This document shows positions 12,865-19,400 of a stretch of DNA of 64,000 nt, piece by piece; the first letter of the stretch is position 1, and the number at the start of each line of letters is the position of its first letter. Below the pieces are notes generated by a model, which was given only the letters and a program-made list of their open reading frames with translations, ran no database searches and was not told where the DNA came from. Made by a program: the position numbers and the translations under genes. This DNA comes from Cenarchaeum sp. (lineage in GTDB: Archaea > Thermoproteota > Nitrososphaeria > Nitrososphaerales > Nitrosopumilaceae). Where the stretch lies: assembly GCA_965206845.1 (NCBI GenBank), contig OZ242221.1, positions 1,312,001 through 1,376,000 of the forward strand, written 5' to 3'.

Positions 12865-14319
12865 TTAGTTTTGGTATTGGGCCAGCTTTGTGTTTGACTC
12901 GTCTAGGATCTTGTGTAGTGTGTCCCTCCAGACCTCAAATCCCTGGGGGGAGTCGGGGTAGTTGTAGTAGTGCTCAGTCAGCCTCCTGTTCTGGCTAGTG
13001 GTGAACCGAAGGCCGCCGGCAAGTCGCTTGTTTAGCGCTCCGCGGATTATCATTCCCAGCCTTCCCAGTGAGCTGAAGTCGGGGTGCTCGCCCTTTGAGA
13101 TCGCCTCCACGCTCAGGTTTCCAAGAAAGTGCTTCATGCCGTAGCTTAACTGCTCGTTGGAGAGCGTCTGTATGAGCCTGCGGAATATCTCAAGGCCTGC
13201 CGTCTTGTAACCGTACTCGTTGATGAACCGCTTGTTGTACCTCCACAGGCCGCTCTCTGTCACGTTGTTCTCCTGTATGGCCTCCACGACGCACTCGCCC
13301 ACTATGGTTCCCGCCACCAGCGCAGGGCCGATTCCCCCGGCGTCCAGCGGCTTTGGCATCCATGCCGAGTCACCCACCAGGATAAACCCGCCTGCGACCA
13401 TACAATCATTCTGCCTCCGGACCGAGACCTGAAAGTTTCCCACTGCGTTGTTGCTGTCCTCCGGATCCTCAGACACCCTGGGCCTCTTTATCGCGCGGTT
13501 CCTGTTTATGTACTCCTCGATGAGCGTGGATACGTTGTCCTTCCTTCCCAGCCTGGCGTTTCGCCTCTCTAGGAGCGTCTTCTCGACGCCGAGGCCGATG
13601 TTTACCTTGTCCTTTCCCTTGGGAAAGACCCAGCCATACCCTCCTGGGGCTATGTCCTGATCCAGGTGGATTATGCAGTAGTCGGGATCAAACTCGGAGA
13701 GATCGGCTTCCCCCTGCTCAAAGTACATGATCTTTCTGCCGGTGGACTCGACATCTTGGCGGTCCACCTTCCTCTCCATTCTGGTGGTGTTGGATATCTG
13801 GTTTCGCAGCATCGAGGTTACGCCGGTGGCGTCGATCACCACCTTTGCGGTTCTCTTGTATGGCTGTTTCTTGCTGTCTATGCCCCGGACTCCCACCACC
13901 TGGGAGTCGTCGTACAGCAGTCCGGTCAGGTTCACCTCATAATCAAAGTCGACTCCCATATTCAGCGTTCTCTCGTTCTGCTTCTCGGGAAGAAGCTGCC
14001 TGTTGAGCATGTATCCGTCGCCGTCAAATGGGATCGATGTCTTCCTGTCCGGAGAGAATGCCATGACGCCCTTGACCTTGTGCTCGATCTCCGGCTCGCT
14101 CCAGGACACGCCGATCCTGTCACTCATGTAGTCCACGGCCTCCTTGCTTACCGCGTCGCCGCAGATCCACCCGCTGATGCTCTTCCTTCCAGGCACGATG
14201 GCTGAGTTCCTGTCGATCACAAGAATCTTCAGTCCCTGCTTGGAGTATCTTGATACCGACTGGGCCGCCACGGTTCCGGCCAGCCCACCCCCTGCCACGA
14301 TGACGTCATAATCTGACAA
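12865..14319 (-). CDS. geranylgeranyl reductase-family FAD-dependent oxidoreductase
   Basis: YDVIVAGGGLAG, PGGYGWVFP, VGDSA and GGIGPA motifs; TTG start at 14319 inferred. Confidence 0.85.
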   Translation of the reverse strand: MSDYDVIVAGGGLAGTVAAQSVSRYSKQGLKILVIDRNSAIVPGRKSISGWICGDAVSKEAVDYMSDRIGVSWSEPEIEHKVKGVMAFSPDRKTSIPFDGDGYMLNRQLLPEKQNERTLNMGVDFDYEVNLTGLLYDDSQVVGVRGIDSKKQPYKRTAKVVIDATGVTSMLRNQISNTTRMERKVDRQDVESTGRKIMYFEQGEADLSEFDPDYCIIHLDQDIAPGGYGWVFPKGKDKVNIGLGVEKTLLERRNARLGRKDNVSTLIEEYINRNRAIKRPRVSEDPEDSNNAVGNFQVSVRRQNDCMVAGGFILVGDSAWMPKPLDAGGIGPALVAGTIVGECVVEAIQENNVTESGLWRYNKRFINEYGYKTAGLEIFRRLIQTLSNEQLSYGMKHFLGNLSVEAISKGEHPDFSSLGRLGMIIRGALNKRLAGGLRFTTSQNRRLTEHYYNYPDSPQGFEVWRDTLHKILDESNTKLAQYQN

Positions 14320-14364
14320 CAAGATACTCCGCAGCTCATAGATATTTAAAATAATGCAGTCGCG

Positions 14365-14494
14365 AACTTTGTTTCCCAATTTCGATAAACGCATCTGAGT
14401 TGCCACAAAGAGCACGATTCTCGTGTGACTTGACGCTGTTTACGGACTAAATTAATCGTAAAAGTGCGAAATGTTTGGATTGGGAAACAAAGTT
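14365..14494. mobile_element. 130-bp MITE
   Basis: Perfect 16-bp TIR AACTTTGTTTCCCAAT (14365-14380 / 14479-14494) and 8-bp TSD CAGTCGCG (14357-14364, 14495-14502). Confidence 0.88.
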
Positions 14495-14954
14495 CAGTCG
14501 CGGCGTGAGTGGGATCGCCGGGCCGGACGTGGGGACTTGTCCGGGCGTATGGGCCCGTGCCGGATTGAAGACGGATACGGCCCCGTGTATTTCTAGCGAG
14601 CTGGTTCCGGCGCTGCTGTTGTCTGCGGGCCGATCCGCGCCAGCGGCTCGTATTTTAAACTGGGTCGGATCGTCGCGGGGTCTTCAACGCTTGCGCTCAG
14701 ACTGGAACGGCTGTTATTTCCTCATTCCCGGTTATGCTTGGGGGTTCGTTCTATTTATTGCTGTGTTTGCGGCTGCGTCCTACAGGCATAACCACCTATG
14801 TTAAAACATCCGGTCATAGTCAAGCGTTGATTCCGTCTGACTTCTGATCCACGCCTAGGTTACGCGCGTACAACTTTAAAGCTATCGCTAGGAATTGGAT
14901 TGCAGAAAATGTACTGGTGCGGGCCAGCCTAGCTGGCCAGTCCGCCCCGTGCAC

Positions 14955-16034
14955 CTACTGCAGAATCTTCTTCATCCGTTTCAGCTTTCTGGCATATCTG
15001 CTTGCGTCATGGGGCTCGTATGGTTCCTTGGCAGTCAGCATCTTCCAGATGATCCTCACCATCTTGTTTGCCACGTGTGTTATGGCAATCGGGTGGTTGC
15101 CACCGTGCCTTGTCTTGGCATTTTGATAGAACCACTTTAGTCTGTCATCATGGCGCACCGCCACGTTGGCTGCTTGGATCATTATCCAGTTTACCCTTCG
15201 GTTTGACGCCTTTTTCATGCGGCCGTGGTGCGTCACGTTGCCGGACTGGCAGACTCGCGGACACATCCCGGTCCATGAGACCAGTCTGTCTGCGGTCTTG
15301 AACCTGGTGATGTCGCCAACCTCAGATACCAGCAGCATCGCGGCAAACGCCTCTATGCCAGTCATGCTCATCAGCAGTTTCGCATCCTCGTTGACTGCGG
15401 CCTGCCTGTCTATCTCTGCCTCGATGCCAGATATCTCCTCTGTGGCATGTGCAATCCTTTTGACGCAGTTTTGCAGGATCATGTTGTCATTTGGTTTCTT
15501 AAGGCGTATCTGCGAAAGCAGCCTGATGGCCTTTTTGCTGTGCATCCTTGAGACATCTGGCATCACGTCGTACTTGTCAAGCAAGCCGTGCGTGTAGTTG
15601 ATCAGGGCAGTCCTTGCCTGAACCATGCTTATCCTGTACCTGAGCAGTTCCCTGACATCGCGCAAATCCGATGGTGCCACGTAGCATTCTGGGATAATCC
15701 CCACGCGCAGCGCGTTTGCAATCTTTTGCGCGTCGATGGGATCCGTCTTGACATCGGTGTCCGATATTATCTTCATCTTGTACGTGTTGGCAAGCTTTAC
15801 CGGTATCCCGCACCCCTCGAAGGCCTCAAACGTCTTGAGCCACATGTTTCCAGTCGACTCGCACGCGGCCCTGCACCGTCCCTTCCCGCTGTATTCTTTT
15901 TTCATCCTGCGTGCAAACTCTTTTGCGTCTTCCAGCGTGTTCACGTATGATGTCCTCTCCAGCACGTTTCCCTTGCCGTCCACTACGCATACCATGCATT
16001 TTCCCTTACCAATGTCTATTCCTATGTTTCTCAT
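14955..16034 (-). CDS. IS110-family DEDD recombinase/transposase
   Basis: GIDIGK, CESTG, KTDPIDA (DEDD) and CQSG catalytic serine; GGAGGTGA RBS before ATG at 16034. Confidence 0.95.
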   Translation of the reverse strand: MRNIGIDIGKGKCMVCVVDGKGNVLERTSYVNTLEDAKEFARRMKKEYSGKGRCRAACESTGNMWLKTFEAFEGCGIPVKLANTYKMKIISDTDVKTDPIDAQKIANALRVGIIPECYVAPSDLRDVRELLRYRISMVQARTALINYTHGLLDKYDVMPDVSRMHSKKAIRLLSQIRLKKPNDNMILQNCVKRIAHATEEISGIEAEIDRQAAVNEDAKLLMSMTGIEAFAAMLLVSEVGDITRFKTADRLVSWTGMCPRVCQSGNVTHHGRMKKASNRRVNWIMIQAANVAVRHDDRLKWFYQNAKTRHGGNHPIAITHVANKMVRIIWKMLTAKEPYEPHDASRYARKLKRMKKILQ

Positions 16035-16065
16035 CCTTTCTCTCACCTCCTTGCGGATTGTTTTT

Positions 16066-16183
16066 GATGGATCGGAAGCTGCAATCACCTATCAGTGCGC
16101 GAAGCACAGGAACACAGCAGCTCGGATTGCCCCATTCAAATGAAAGTGCGCGGAGCACATGGTTATCAAGGGGTCGATCCACT
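16066..16183 (-). ncRNA. putative IS110 bridge RNA
   Basis: Outer stem enclosing two internal-loop hairpins with near-identical GUGC-U(C/U)CGC-GCAC caps, upstream of the recombinase. Confidence 0.65.
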
Positions 16184-16404
16184 GCCACGACTACGACGAG
16201 GATGTTTTTCCAAATGAATCAAATCTACAGAACCGATTCCAGTTCATATGTGCTTGTAGGACACAGTTTGTGTTTGCAGGGCGCGCATGCGGCAGGCTTC
16301 TGCTCCATTCGGGCGCAGGTCTGCGCACCCGGTCACGCCTTCGCGCTTGGCGCTACGGCAGACGATTCCTGCGTTGCTTACGTGCCCGGACTGAAGGTTC
16401 GGGC

Positions 16405-19400
16405 CTACACGGCTTTTGCGTCGCATATGCTCCGATAGTCGCACCAGTTGCAGACGCCGTAGCTGGGAGTGGGCTCAAAGTTCTCACTGAGAATCTGTGC
16501 GATCATCTCCTCGATGGACTCCATGGACGCATCGACCGACCCTTTGGTGACCGCATACTCGACAACCTTGCCTCTCTCAAGATAGAACAGCGACGCCTTT
16601 GCTGGCAGCTCGCCCTTGAGCTTCTCGACTGCCTTTGCGTAGATGTTCAGCTGCGGATCCGCCGCCGCCTTTGGCCTGCTCAATACGCTCTTTCCGGATT
16701 TAAAGTCCACCACCTCGTATCTGCCGCCGGGGTTTCTCTCCAACCTGTCAATCCTTCCGTTGAACCTGACGTCGCCAATCAGTATGCTGAAGGGAATCTC
16801 GGTGTCCACCAGCTCGTTTTCCGAGCGTTCCTCCCACTCCAGATATGCCCGTATCATGGCGTCTGCCCGATCCGTGATCCTCTTCTCACCGGCCCTGCTC
16901 TGAATGCCCGGGCTCCACATCTTTGTGAACTTCTTCATGCTGTCCTCTGGTGTGACGCCTCGGCCCTGCGATCTCGCCTTTGCGGCCTCCTCGACCACTG
17001 CATGGATCACCCTGCCAAGATTGGCAGGGATGCTTGGCGGGCGGGGGACCCGGTCGATCTTCTCGAACTTGAATTGTAGCGGACACTTCTCATACGCCTT
17101 GATGCCGCTGGCAGACAGGGTCAGCTCATCGTGGTTGAACAGCGGCCGGCTCATGTCTGCCACCTCCGCAGACAGGTCCACGTCACCCATGTCGACATCT
17201 AGTATGCTCCGGGGGTCAAAGCCGTCAAGGTTGCCGAACCGCTCGTAGTGCTGGATGCGCGACAGCTCGACGATCTTGTGGATCGCAGTCTTGAGACTCG
17301 ATTGGCCAATCGCTGTATATGCCTGCTTCTGCTTGTCTGACTTTGTGCGCTCTACCCGGCTTACGGGCTGTGCATCAAAGTCCTCCGACTCGTCAAAGTC
17401 AGTTACCTCGATCAGCGGGTTTCTCCTGTAGTCCAGCTCGACTAGGAACCGGGACGGGTCCGTGTCCCTGACGTTCTCGCCGTACCGTATTGGCTGGATC
17501 ATGTACAGTCTCTTCATGGCCCTGGTTATGGCCACGTAGAACAGCCTGCGCTCTTCCGCGTCGTGCATCTCTTTTGTGTCCTCCCTCCTGTTGTCTCCCT
17601 GCAGCAGCCCCAGGGGAATGCGGAACGGTTTCTCCCGATACCTGAGGGGAAACCGGTTCTTGGCCATGTCAGTGACAAAGACGACGGGAAACTCCTTTCC
17701 CTTGCTCTTGTGCATGGTCAGGACGTTGACGGCATCAGCAGGCGCGGCATCCTCCAGCTCGACACTCCACCCGTCCAGTGCCGAGACGGACTCGAGAAAG
17801 CCGCCAAGCGAGCGATCAGCAAAGATCTCATCGTACTCTTCTGCGATCCTGTGGATCTTGCTCAGCAGCAGGGCGCTTGTCTTGTCCTGGTGGCCTGACT
17901 GCAGCGCCCGCTTGTACAGCCCTGACTGCTTCATCATTACATGGTACACGAGATCGCTTACGGAAGAGCCAGCCGCCAGCCTGATTATGTCCTCAAGGAG
18001 GGCCACAAGCTCTGAGATCTCCTGCTTTTGTGTGATCGCGAGCTTGTCACAATCCCTTACCGTCTCCCAGACAAGGTCTCGGGACCCGTCTCCTGCACCC
18101 CTCGCCTCCTTGTGCGCCTGGCTCATCAGCACCATGATGTTCCTCTCTGTGATACCACGTTTCCTTAGCAGATCAAATATCATCATTCCGGCAGTCCCCT
18201 GGGAATGCGCAATTTTGAGGTAAGCCACGAGCTCGGCGACGGCCGGGTTGCGGCGAATGTCCGGCTCCATCTCGACGGAGGCAGGTATCCCAAAGGACTC
18301 CAGAGCCTGGGCGAACCTGCGACCCTCTTCCTTGCGCCTTGACAGGATTGCTATGTCCCGATAGCGCATGCCATCCTTGATCATCTGGCGTATGGTCTGG
18401 ACGACAAACTCCGTCTGCCCGTTCCCGGTCGGCGTGCATACCACGGCTATCTTGTCCCCATCCGGGTTCGGGTGCTGACACCCCTCTGTGTCCCGCCCGA
18501 GAACTTGGTTTGCGATGCGTATGATGTTTCCGGTGCTGCGGTAGTTTTTTACGAGTCTCACCTCCTTCAGTTCGGGATACGTCTTCTTGTACTCCTGGAA
18601 TATCCCGGAGTGCGATCCCTGAAACCCCATGATGGACTGGTCCTCGTCTCCCACCACGCCGATGTTCCTGTGGCTGGCAAGGAGCTTGGCCAGCTCCAGC
18701 TGCGCATAGTTGTTGTCCTGGAACTCGTCGATCATGACATACCGGTATCTCTCCTGGTACTTGGCCAGCAGGGCCGCATTCCCTCTGAGTACCTCGACTG
18801 TCTTGGACACCATGTCGCCAAAGTCGACTAGGTTCCTCTCGGTTCTGTACTCCTCGTAGGCCCGGTACATCTTGCCAAGCTCGCCGAGCTTGTGGATGAG
18901 CTCCGGGTTCTGCGGCTCTGGGGAGCCCAGCTGCTCGTCGACGTACCCCTGCAGTCTCTGCGGCGAGATCATCTCATCCTTGAGGCTTCTCACTGCCTCG
19001 AGCATTCCGGCGTAGATCTCCCTCGTGCTCCCTCCGATGTCTACGTACTCTGGGTTAAAGCCAAACCTGTCAGTGTTCCTGAGGCACCAGATCAGCTGCG
19101 CCCACTTCTCGAAGATTCTGGTCTCCCGGCCCACCCCGGACTCGGCAAGGTTCTCCAGCAGAATCTCCCTTGCAAACGCATGAAACGTGCTGACCTTTAC
19201 ATCGAGCTTGCCGCGCTCCTCCAGCCTCTCCTGCATCTCGCCTGTGGCCTTGTTGGTAAATGTGAGGCAGAGAATGGACGACTGCGCAACGCCAGCCTCT
19301 ATCAGGCTGAGTGCCCTGCTGACGATCACGCGGGTCTTGCCGCTTCCGGGGCCTGCGATGATCATCAGCGGCCCCTGTCTGTGGTCTGCTGCCTGCTGCT

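What the first reader, a model, noticed from the sequence alone, without database searches (positions are those of the whole stretch)
16040..16242. Archaeal IS110 with a visible two-loop bridge-RNA-like structure
Seen, on the coding strand upstream of an intact DEDD + QSG recombinase: an outer stem GGAUCG/CGAUCC (16175-16180 with 16069-16074) encloses two arms. Arm 1 is CCCC-uugauaaccau-GUGC uccgc GCAC-uuucauuugaau-GGGG; arm 2 is AGCUGC-uguguuccu-GUGC uucgc GCAC-ugauaggugauu-GCAGCU. The two caps are a 15-bp near-perfect repeat (16094-16108, 16145-16159). Tentative ends carry a CT dinucleotide on the coding strand, and arm 2 UUCCU matches the predicted circle junction (..ATTCCT..). Known: IS110 recombinases use bridge RNAs with target- and donor-binding loops. 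Inference: a compact archaeal bridge system. I could not match arm 1 convincingly to the flanking target.
Basis: partly seen in the sequence, partly recalled or inferred. Interest (0 to 1): 0.7.

Follow-up and report, generated by a model that had tools for sequence, protein, structure and literature searches.

The report
Archaeal IS110-family element with bridge RNA
This is a mobile DNA element of an ammonia-oxidising-type archaeon that carries, just ahead of its recombinase gene, a small two-armed guide RNA whose loops spell out both the insertion site and the element's own ends: a compact variant of the known "bridge RNA" system rather than something of a new kind.

Summary
The proposed CT ends and ATTCCT circle junction are wrong. 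The element is window 14793-16210 (minus strand, 1418 bp), flanked by a TG core and inserted in an ~80-bp MITE.

The fold is weak by energy alone (z -1.79). Across 77 distinct homologues, 22 of 26 pairs show compensatory changes.

Arm 1 is the target loop. Its 3' side repeats the left flank plus core (UCAUU-UG). Its 5' side is complementary to core plus right flank. Across 60 distinct guides this holds at 4.17 of 6 identities against 1.62 when shuffled (0 of 10000 shuffles as high). Arm 2 is the donor loop, matching the right end and, in relatives, the first 5-6 nt of the left end.

The guide order (top-strand guide first) and the 9-bp subterminal inverted repeats are IS1111-like. The RNA nevertheless lies upstream of the gene, as in IS110 types.

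The window copy has lost the first 8 nt of the left end, so one donor guide has no proper partner.

The RNA family occurs in 27 of 151 genomes of the same family. No RNA-level evidence was found.

Verdict: a real bridge/seek RNA, and a new variant of a known kind.

The parts
16213..16279 (-). Left half of the ~80-bp MITE that serves as target. Its last bases TTCATT (16218-16213) are the left target.
   Evidence: Empty MITE copy at G000:C1:262120-262199 joins both halves. 5 empty copies cover at least 60 of 80 nt.
16211..16212 (-). Left copy of the TG core.
   Evidence: Junction comparison of copies A, B, C, D and the empty site.
16035..16210 (-). Left end (non-coding) of the element. It lacks the first 8 nt (AACACATG-type) that copy C and all relatives have.
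16200..16208 (-). Left subterminal inverted repeat AAAACATCC. It is A-rich and overlaps a possible archaeal TATA-like element.
   Evidence: It is complementary to 14803-14811. A TATA-like word was found at left end +7..+18 in 100 of 110 relatives. The promoter role is inference.
16061..16187 (-). Bridge (seek) RNA, as matched by covariance model R1 (146 bits).
16130..16173 (-). Arm 1, the target-binding loop. 5' side 16169-16159: CAAUAG at 16162-16167 is positioned to pair with right target +1..+6 (5 of 6 pair in this copy) and CA at 16161-16160 with the core. 3' side 16145-16134: UCAUU at 16143-16139 equals left target -5..-1 and UG at 16138-16137 equals the core.
16077..16122 (-). Arm 2, the donor-binding loop. 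3' side 16094-16083: AUAGG-UG equals right end -5..-1 plus core. 5' side 16116-16108: UGUGUU pairs with left end +1..+6 (AACACA) in copy C and relatives.
16067..16074 (-). 3' strand of the outer stem, which pairs with 16175-16182 and closes both arms.
   Evidence: helix 1: 8 of 9 pairs change on both sides.
16043..16050 (-). GGAGGUGA, a Shine-Dalgarno-like motif ahead of the ATG. It is conserved in paralogues.
   Evidence: The role is inference.
14955..16034 (-). IS110-family DEDD/Ser recombinase gene, 359 aa, intact.
   Evidence: (NF033542, 236 bits against a cutoff of 140).
14795..14954 (-). Right end (non-coding). It holds the right subterminal inverted repeat GGATGTTTT at 14811-14803 and the terminal CATAGG at 14800-14795.
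14793..14794 (-). Right copy of the TG core.
14769..14792 (-). Right half of the target MITE. GTTATG (14792-14787) is the right target.

Best explanation
Window 14793-16210 (minus strand) is a 1418-bp insertion sequence of the IS110 superfamily in an archaeon of the family that holds Nitrosopumilus. Its 5' untranslated left end encodes a ~115-125-nt guide RNA.

Architecture: an 8-9-bp outer helix closes two arms. Each arm is base stem, internal loop, 4-bp cap.

Target loop (arm 1):
- The 5' strand pairs with the top (gene-sense) strand of core TG plus about 6 nt of the right flank.
- The 3' strand has the sense of about 5 nt of the left flank plus TG, so it pairs with the bottom strand.

Donor loop (arm 2), same layout:
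- The 3' strand equals the last 5 nt of the right end plus TG.
- The 5' strand pairs with the first 5-6 nt of the left end.

Inferred mechanism, by analogy with IS621 and IS1111-type elements: the DEDD/Ser recombinase binds this RNA, aligns the excised circle junction (right end-TG-left end) with a target (left flank-TG-right flank), and exchanges strands at TG without a target duplication.

Shown here: the fold, its conservation, the element ends, the core, and the covariation of all four loop strands with flanks and ends.

Inferred only: that the RNA is made, that it binds the protein, and that a circle forms.

The guide order (top-strand guide first) and the 9-12-bp subterminal inverted repeats are those described for IS1111-type elements. 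The position of the RNA upstream of the gene is that of IS110-type elements.

The window copy, with copies B and D, has lost the first 8 nt of the left end. Its left-end donor guide is therefore largely unpaired and the copy may be impaired.
For: Element and protein:
- Pfam and NCBIfam place the protein in the IS110 family.
- The catalytic D, E, D, D and S align with IS621 and ISCro4.
- Ends and core come from 4 copies plus an empty site.

Structure:
- 22 of 26 pairs are compensatory and 96.3% of cells pair, on 77 distinct sequences.
- 7 of 26 pairs are compensatory on an unfitted 7-sequence alignment.

Guides against DNA, 10000 shuffles each:
- Left flank against arm-1 3' side: 4.34 of 6 identities at 104 unique sites, against 1.74 shuffled. 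With one site per distinct guide (n=60): 4.17 against 1.62. No shuffle reached either value.
- Right flank against the reverse complement of arm-1 5' side: 4.24 of 7 (n=42) against 2.16. One per guide (n=22): 3.73 against 1.84. No shuffle reached either value.
- Left-end start against the reverse complement of arm-2 5' side: 4.62 of 6 (n=29) against 3.10. No shuffle reached it.
- Five wrong-strand or wrong-side controls gave 1.35-1.63 against 1.44-1.58, i.e. no signal.

Per position:
- Left target -5..-1 match at 0.58-0.91 (expected about 0.3).
- Right target +1..+6 match at 0.55-0.75 (expected about 0.32).

Natural reprogramming:
- 5 of the 9 differences between copies A and C inside the RNA fall in the 13 variable positions of arm 1.
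- Four copies in one Nitrosopumilus MAG carry three different target loops that follow their flanks. For example L016 matches its right target 7 of 7 and L015 its left target 6 of 6.

Association with the gene: 64 of 110 RNA hits are followed within 120 nt by an ORF of at least 300 aa.

Guide order in known systems: IS621 has the left target guide 5' (A50-U58) and the right target guide 3' (G77-G80) (passages). IS1111 seekRNAs have the top-strand complement 5' of the bottom-strand match, reversed in ISEc21 (passages).
Against: - No RNA-level evidence. No listed sequencing run is on record as RNA.
- Folding energy alone is unremarkable.
- The shuffles ignore relatedness of the elements. Collapsing to one site per distinct guide only partly cures this.
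- Right ends were located with the arm-2 3' guide plus the inverted repeat, so the 'right end equals arm-2 3' side' match is partly circular. A right end was found in only 45 of 110 loci.
- Alignment A3 is fitted to the model.
- Some copies do not fit. Copy C's right flank matches 0 of 7. L041 sits at a sibling's site type. 7 of 104 unique sites have at most 2 of 6 left-flank identities.
- The 5' side of arm 2 does not pair with the core (0.09 and 0.30), unlike what is reported for all four IS621 guides.
- The window copy lacks its left-end donor partner.
Confidence: 0.88

Rival explanations
1. It is a canonical IS621-type (IS110-group) bridge RNA, differing only in size.
For: - The RNA lies in the left end upstream of the gene.
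- It has two internal loops, target loop first and donor loop second.
- The NCBIfam model 'IS110 family RNA-guided transposase' is passed.
Against: - The guide order is reversed relative to IS621 and ISEc21.
- The core is TG, not CT.
- The subterminal inverted repeats are 9-12 bp, against the 2-3 bp reported for the IS110 group.
- An outer helix closes both arms, and there is no separate 5' stem-loop.
- The protein is only remotely similar to IS621 and ISCro4 (E 3.7e-6 and 1.3e-6).
Confidence: 0.07
2. The structure is a 5'-UTR element that only regulates translation or stability of the recombinase mRNA. The loop-flank similarity is then a by-product, for example of target preference set by the protein.
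For: - The RNA abuts a Shine-Dalgarno-like motif, and no terminator separates it from the gene.
- No expression data exist.
Against: - Loop nucleotides change together with the flanks, position by position, on the correct strand only.
- The controls are flat.
- The donor loop tracks the element's own ends.
- A purely regulatory UTR gives no reason for this.
Confidence: 0.03
3. The window copy itself is a crippled relic. Copies A, B and D did not spread by RNA-guided recombination but were carried as passengers when the host MITE was mobilised by another transposase.
For: - All three share the 8-nt left-end deletion.
- All three sit in one MITE subtype (GATTCATT, TATGAAC) that differs from the 5 empty copies.
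- Where readable (A, B), the occupied MITEs have their own different 9-11-bp direct repeats.
- Copy D has further lost the RNA and about 61 codons.
Against: - The arm-1 loops of A and B fit exactly this MITE subtype (5 of 5 and 5 of 6), as expected for guided insertion.
- The ORFs of A and B are intact after 27 differences in 1416 nt.
- CC-UU of the arm-2 5' side can still pair with G-GAA at the shortened junction.
Confidence: 0.35

Closest known systems
IS621 / ISCro4 bridge RNA systems (IS110 group; Durrant et al. 2024, PMC11208160; Hiraizumi et al. 2024, PMC11208158; passages read)
   Same: - DEDD + Ser recombinase.
- Guide RNA in the left end, upstream of and in the sense of the gene.
- A target loop followed by a donor loop.
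- Each loop carries one guide with the sense of a flank plus core and one complementary to core plus the other flank.
- A dinucleotide core is present at both junctions, with no target duplication.
- Insertion is into a repeated element (REP there, MITE here).
   Different: - The guide order within each loop is swapped relative to the direction of the RNA and gene.
- Core TG (CA on the other strand) instead of CT.
- About 115-125 nt instead of 177 nt.
- Arms of 44 and 46 nt (49 in the fitted model) instead of 65 and 68 nt.
- An outer helix closes both arms, and there is no 5' stem-loop.
- Subterminal inverted repeats of 9-12 bp instead of 2-3 bp.
- One donor guide does not cover the core.
- Protein similarity is only E ~1e-6.
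IS1111-type seekRNA elements (ISEc11, ISPa11, ISKpn4; Siddiquee et al. 2024, PMC11187229; section 6 read whole, other passages)
   Same: - The top-strand complement lies 5' of the bottom-strand match.
- Subterminal inverted repeats of IS1111-like length.
- Short RNA (70-100 nt there).
- The protein motif G-x-x-P-x4-SG is present, as GMCPRVCQSG.
   Different: - The non-coding region and RNA are upstream of the gene here, and downstream in nearly all IS1111-type elements.
- That paper lists exceptions (ISMtsp17 upstream; ISHvo10 and ISAcp5 on both sides), whose RNAs it does not describe in the parts I read.
- The placement of this protein within the IS1111 clade was not tested.
Haloarchaeal plasmid-borne 'IS110 family transposase' elements (e.g. 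CP050016.1 Haloarcula sp., NZ_CP008875.1 Halanaeroarchaeum)
   Same: - They are the best tblastn hits of the protein in the plasmid collection (31-35% identity over about 95%).
- In L137, read by eye: 12-13-bp inverted repeats next to the ends; an upstream cap GUGC..GCAC followed by GUAUAGG-CG that equals the right end CATAGG-CG; and an arm whose 5' side is complementary to the right flank and whose 3' side repeats the left flank.
   Different: - Model R1 barely sees them (E 0.045 on L138).
- Only one locus was read by eye, with no statistics.

Membership tests
IS110 superfamily (DEDD/Ser RNA-guided recombinase elements) | [quoted passage not shown] | tested here: met
   E 4.5e-24 and 1.4e-23. 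NF033542 scores 236 bits against a cutoff of 140.
IS110 superfamily (DEDD/Ser RNA-guided recombinase elements) | Catalytic D, E, D, D and the Ser of the SG motif. | tested here: met
   IGID, CEST, KTDPIDA and QSG align with the corresponding IS621 and ISCro4 residues.
IS110 superfamily (DEDD/Ser RNA-guided recombinase elements) | Site-specific insertion with a shared core at both junctions and no target duplication. | tested here: met
   TG is at both junctions and occurs once in the empty site.
Bridge RNA of IS621 type | Two internal loops, one covarying with the target and one with the donor ends. | tested here: met
Bridge RNA of IS621 type | The 5' strand of each loop has the sense of the left (RNA-proximal) flank plus core, and the 3' strand is complementary to core plus the right flank. 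| tested here: not met
   The order is the reverse. The 3' strand matches the left flank in sense and the 5' strand complements the right flank.
Bridge RNA of IS621 type | CT core. | tested here: not met
   The core is TG. It is TG at the left junction in 98-99% of 105 unique sites.
Bridge RNA of IS621 type | The RNA binds the recombinase and is required for recombination. | not testable with these tools
   This needs biochemistry or an in vivo assay.
IS1111-type seekRNA element | Subterminal inverted repeats of about 7-17 bp. | tested here: met
   9 bp in the window (16208-16200 with 14811-14803). At least 7 bp in the 45 of 110 loci where a right end was called, though that was a calling criterion.
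IS1111-type seekRNA element | The top-strand complement lies 5' of the bottom-strand match in the RNA. | tested here: met
   against.
IS1111-type seekRNA element | The long non-coding region and RNA lie downstream of the transposase gene. | tested here: not met
   The RNA is upstream. The left end is 176 nt and the right end 160 nt in the window.
IS1111-type seekRNA element | The transposase clusters with IS1111 transposases (motif GL-P----S/TG). | tested here: inconclusive
   The motif reads GMCPRVCQSG. The tblastn hit to an ISEc11-family gene scores 67 bits, against 30 bits by phmmer to IS621. These are different programs, and no tree was made.
Any Rfam 15 family | A covariance-model match. 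| tested here: not met
   At E up to 10 there were only two chance-level hits in 14000-17000: mir-2518 (E 3.7) and a 13-nt hairpin of ssnA (E 5).

The most novel reading that the evidence does not exclude
These elements would represent a separate, old archaeal branch of RNA-guided DEDD recombinases, shared by Nitrosopumilaceae and haloarchaea. In it an IS1111-type guide layout (top-strand guide first, long subterminal repeats) sits in the 5' UTR as a single closed Y-shaped RNA of about 115 nt that uses a TG core. That would make it an organisational intermediate showing how the guide RNA changed ends between the IS110 and IS1111 groups, and a very compact programmable recombinase native to archaea.
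Probability: 0.3. Interest if true: 0.6.

Novelty: new variant of a known kind. Interest (0 to 1): 0.45.

Why it matters
Bridge/seek RNA-guided recombinases are under intense study as genome-writing tools, and their diversity is being mined.

This family adds:
- a well-supported natural example in mesophilic archaea;
- a small RNA (about 115-125 nt) and a 359-aa enzyme;
- about 11 programmable target positions, a TG core, and many naturally reprogrammed loops.

It also combines features used to separate the IS110 and IS1111 groups: RNA position on one side, guide order and inverted repeats on the other. That bears on how the two groups are related.

For the host genomes, it explains recurrent site-specific insertions. 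Examples are the MITE in this genome and the ..TAG(C/T)CTGT-TG-CATAAC.. sites in one relative.

It is not a new principle. A specialist would expect IS110-family elements, archaeal ones included, to carry such RNAs.

Tried and rejected
- Rfam scan of 14000-17000 at E up to 10: nothing relevant.
- Expression: no RNA holder listed. Two runs only guessed to be RNA (X1, X2) hold short contigs over 15963-16116 and 15975-16192, from a relative (95-99% alike). This is not usable as evidence of transcription.
- Insertion polymorphism: no contig in the four runs laid joins across the element. The one joint listed (15275 to 16144, one contig, 25 letters on its shorter side, five unmatched letters between) is internal and was not followed.
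- TGG or GG as core: rejected, because copy C reads CATAGG-TG-C at its right junction.
- Predicted perfect target TTCATT-TG-GTTATCA elsewhere in the genome: no site with at most 1 mismatch, 1 site with 2, and 19 with 3.
- Protein subgroup (IS110 or IS1111) from tblastn against plasmids: all bacterial hits shown in the two listings are at most 29% identical, and the annotation says only 'IS110 family', so this is not decisive.
- Model R1 on the haloarchaeal loci: E 0.045 and 0.13, below significance.
- Right ends could not be called in 65 of 110 loci with my criterion.
- Earlier notes of this scan: none on this RNA by sequence.
- Literature searches that found no description of this family: 'bridge RNA' + IS110 + archaea, seekRNA + IS1111, Nitrosopumilus + IS110 (3 papers, by listing none on guide RNAs).
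- Supplementary tables of PMC11208160 and PMC11187229 and the database of 10.64898/2026.10.21.760802 (86 bridge-RNA models, 32,190 loci) could not be seen. They may already contain it.

Full report
**What is there.** On the minus strand the window holds a 359-aa ORF (16034-14955) with both IS110-family Pfam domains. It passes the NCBIfam model 'IS110 family RNA-guided transposase' with 236 bits against a cutoff of 140. It is remotely similar to the solved ISCro4 and IS621 recombinases (E 1.3e-6 and 3.7e-6). The catalytic D, E, D, D and the Ser of the SG motif align. The two caps are a 15-nt repeat at 93% identity.

**Ends and core.**
- blastn of the region against the window's own 1.65-Mb genome gave a 98% copy (B), a 92% copy in a different context (C), and a copy with an internal 354-bp deletion (D).
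- It also gave several copies of a short repeat that matches both flanks of the window copy. One of these, C1:262120-262199, joins the two flanks directly.
- The junctions read TTCATT-TG-GAAAAAC and CATAGG-TG-GTTATG in A, B and D. They read ACCTT-TG-AACACATGGAAAAAC and CATAGG-TG-CGCC in C. The empty site reads CTCATT-TG-GTTATG.
- The core is therefore TG, and the element is 14793-16210 counting one core copy (1418 bp).
- The target is an ~80-bp MITE with terminal inverted repeats and 9-11-bp direct repeats. There are 5 empty copies covering at least 60 of 80 nt.

**Is the fold real?**
- Energy alone says little: z +0.87 for 203 nt and -1.79 for the 120-nt core.
- Two divergent paralogues in the same genome (C1:443370-443499 and C1:678694-678819) keep all five helices through compensatory changes, while the internal loops differ.
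- A covariance model built from 7 sequences finds 5 strong copies in the genome.
- It finds matches in 27 of 151 genomes sampled from the same family, in 11 of 27 genera. This tally includes the window's own genome and one genome flagged unpublished, G076, on which nothing else here rests.
- It matches only 1 of 131 genomes from other families of the phylum.
- On 100 hits (77 distinct), 96.3% of cells pair against 82.7% after shuffling. 22 of 26 pairs change on both sides, and slid partners pair at 34-53%. This alignment is fitted to the model. The unfitted 7-sequence alignment agrees.
- No Rfam 15 family matches.

**What the loops read.** I fetched 112 loci: loci, and 80 regions, four of them cut short at contig ends and left out. 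The unpublished genome's locus L050 was also left out.
- The left boundary was set from the conserved left-end motif TG|AAnnCATG(n)TAAA in 110 loci.
- The right boundary was set in 45 loci, from the arm-2 3' guide plus an inverted repeat of at least 7 nt.
- Left flank against the arm-1 3' strand, same sense: 4.34 of 6 identities at 104 unique sites, against 1.74 shuffled. With one site per distinct guide (n=60): 4.17 against 1.62.
- Right flank against the reverse complement of the arm-1 5' strand: 4.24 of 7 (n=42) against 2.16. One per guide (n=22): 3.73 against 1.84.
- First 6 nt of the left end against the reverse complement of the arm-2 5' strand: 4.62 of 6 (n=29) against 3.10.
- In each of these, 0 of 10000 shuffles reached the observed value.
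- Five controls with the wrong strand or wrong loop side were flat.
- Position by position, left target -5..-1, right target +1..+6, left end +1..+5 and right end -5..-1 carry the signal.
- The core is matched by three of the four loop strands, but not by the arm-2 5' strand.
- The arm-2 base two positions after the core agrees with right target +2 more often than expected (0.52 against 0.28). This is a handshake-like hint only.
- The misfits: 7 of 104 sites have at most 2 of 6 left-flank identities. Copy C's right flank matches 0 of 7. L041 sits at the site type of sibling copies that carry another loop.
- The shuffles do not correct for relatedness.
- The right-end match is partly circular, because that guide helped locate the end.

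**The window copy.**
- Arm-1 3' strand UCAUU-UG equals TCATT-TG of the MITE (5 of 5, plus core).
- Arm-1 5' strand pairs with TG-GTTAT (5 of 6, plus core).
- Arm-2 3' strand AUAGG-UG equals the right end (5 of 5, plus core).
- Arm-2 5' strand UGUGUU would pair with AACACA, the start of the left end in copy C and in relatives. A, B and D lack exactly those 8 nt.
- The window copy is thus cognate to its site but short of one donor partner.
- Its ORF, and those of B and C, are intact.
- I could not decide whether A, B and D spread by guided recombination or as passengers of the MITE. The occupied MITEs form a subtype of their own.

**Comparison with known systems.**
- In IS621 the left target guide (5' strand, A50-U58) has the sense of the left flank plus core. 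The right target guide (3' strand, G77-G80) complements core plus the right flank. The RNA is read from the left end inward (passages).
- Here the two strands are swapped.
- Siddiquee et al. report exactly this difference between the groups: top-strand complement first in IS1111-type seekRNAs, reversed in the IS110-type ISEc21. They add that IS1111 types have subterminal inverted repeats and a downstream non-coding region, with a few exceptions such as ISMtsp17 where it is upstream.
- The present family has the IS1111-type order and 9-12-bp inverted repeats, but the RNA is upstream.
- Physically the pairing scheme is the IS621 one if the other DNA strand is called 'top'. The core then reads CA, and the gene and RNA are inverted relative to the asymmetry of the site. 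This is inference.
- The closest plasmid-borne proteins are haloarchaeal, at 31-35% identity. One such element, read by eye, shows the same layout.
- A 2026 preprint reports 86 bridge-RNA models over 32,190 loci, many deviating from the IS621 fold (section read). This family may be among them, but I could not check.

**Likely working.**
- A TATA-like A/T word sits at left end +7..+18 in 100 of 110 loci.
- The model starts a median 31 nt from the left-end start. A start of transcription at about the outer helix is therefore plausible. This is inference.
- No oligo-T terminator separates the RNA from the Shine-Dalgarno-like GGAGGUGA and the ATG. The RNA is therefore probably the 5' part of the recombinase transcript, processed or not.
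- No RNA data were available.

**Verdict.** This is a real guide RNA of a known kind in a variant layout. Its ends, core and arm-2 match are corrected, and the missing arm-1 match is supplied.

Noticed in passing
window 14769-14792 and 16213-16279; G000:C1:262120-262199 and four more: An ~80-bp MITE with terminal inverted repeats (GGCTGTGTCCTAC..) and 9-11-bp direct repeats. There are 5 empty copies and 3 copies occupied by the IS. The occupied ones form a sequence subtype.
   Followed up: partly
window 14365-14494: A second MITE of about 133 bp with perfect 16-bp terminal inverted repeats (AACTTTGTTTCCCAAT). It has 5 copies in the genome at 93-97% identity. It overlaps the mechanical GTG start of ORF 12865-14415, so that gene probably starts further in. 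A similar stretch lies in the right flank of L016 (Nitrosopumilus MAG).
   Followed up: partly
G000:C1:1266743-1267885 (L004/L006): Copy D of the IS has lost 354 bp, comprising the whole guide RNA and about 61 codons. The deletion lies between two TGGAAA microhomologies, one at the left-end junction.
   Followed up: partly
G000:C1:678694-678819 (L021): A well-folded paralogous guide RNA (127.6 bits) with its own loops and a left flank that matches it 5 of 6, but with no recombinase ORF downstream. It is a solo guide RNA or the remnant of an element.
   Followed up: partly
L041 (G144:C13:1752338-1752465): This copy carries the arm-1 3' guide CAAUUG but sits at ..GTCTAC-TG. That is the site type of sibling copies whose guide is UCCUAC. 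It suggests action of a sibling's RNA in trans, or a later exchange of loops.
   Followed up: no
L055-L062 (G079:C2): In this group of copies in one genome, each inserted at TAG(C/T)CTGT-TG-CATAAC.., seven of the eight loci have a longest ORF of 149 aa after the RNA and one (L056) of 141 aa, instead of about 350. Overall, 46 of 110 RNA hits lack an ORF of at least 300 aa.
   Followed up: no
L104 (G134:C1:1257755-1259652): The right flank matches the arm-1 guide 6 of 6 only if the junction is placed 4 nt further on (..GGG-TG-GG-TG-GATGTC). This is a second case, besides the window's left end, of a junction shifted to a neighbouring TG.
   Followed up: no
L137 (CP050016.1, Haloarcula plasmid) 440-700 and 1850-1910: The haloarchaeal homologue shows 12-13-bp inverted repeats at its ends and an upstream two-arm RNA whose loops read its flanks in the same order as here. 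The core is TG on the left and CG on the right.
   Followed up: partly
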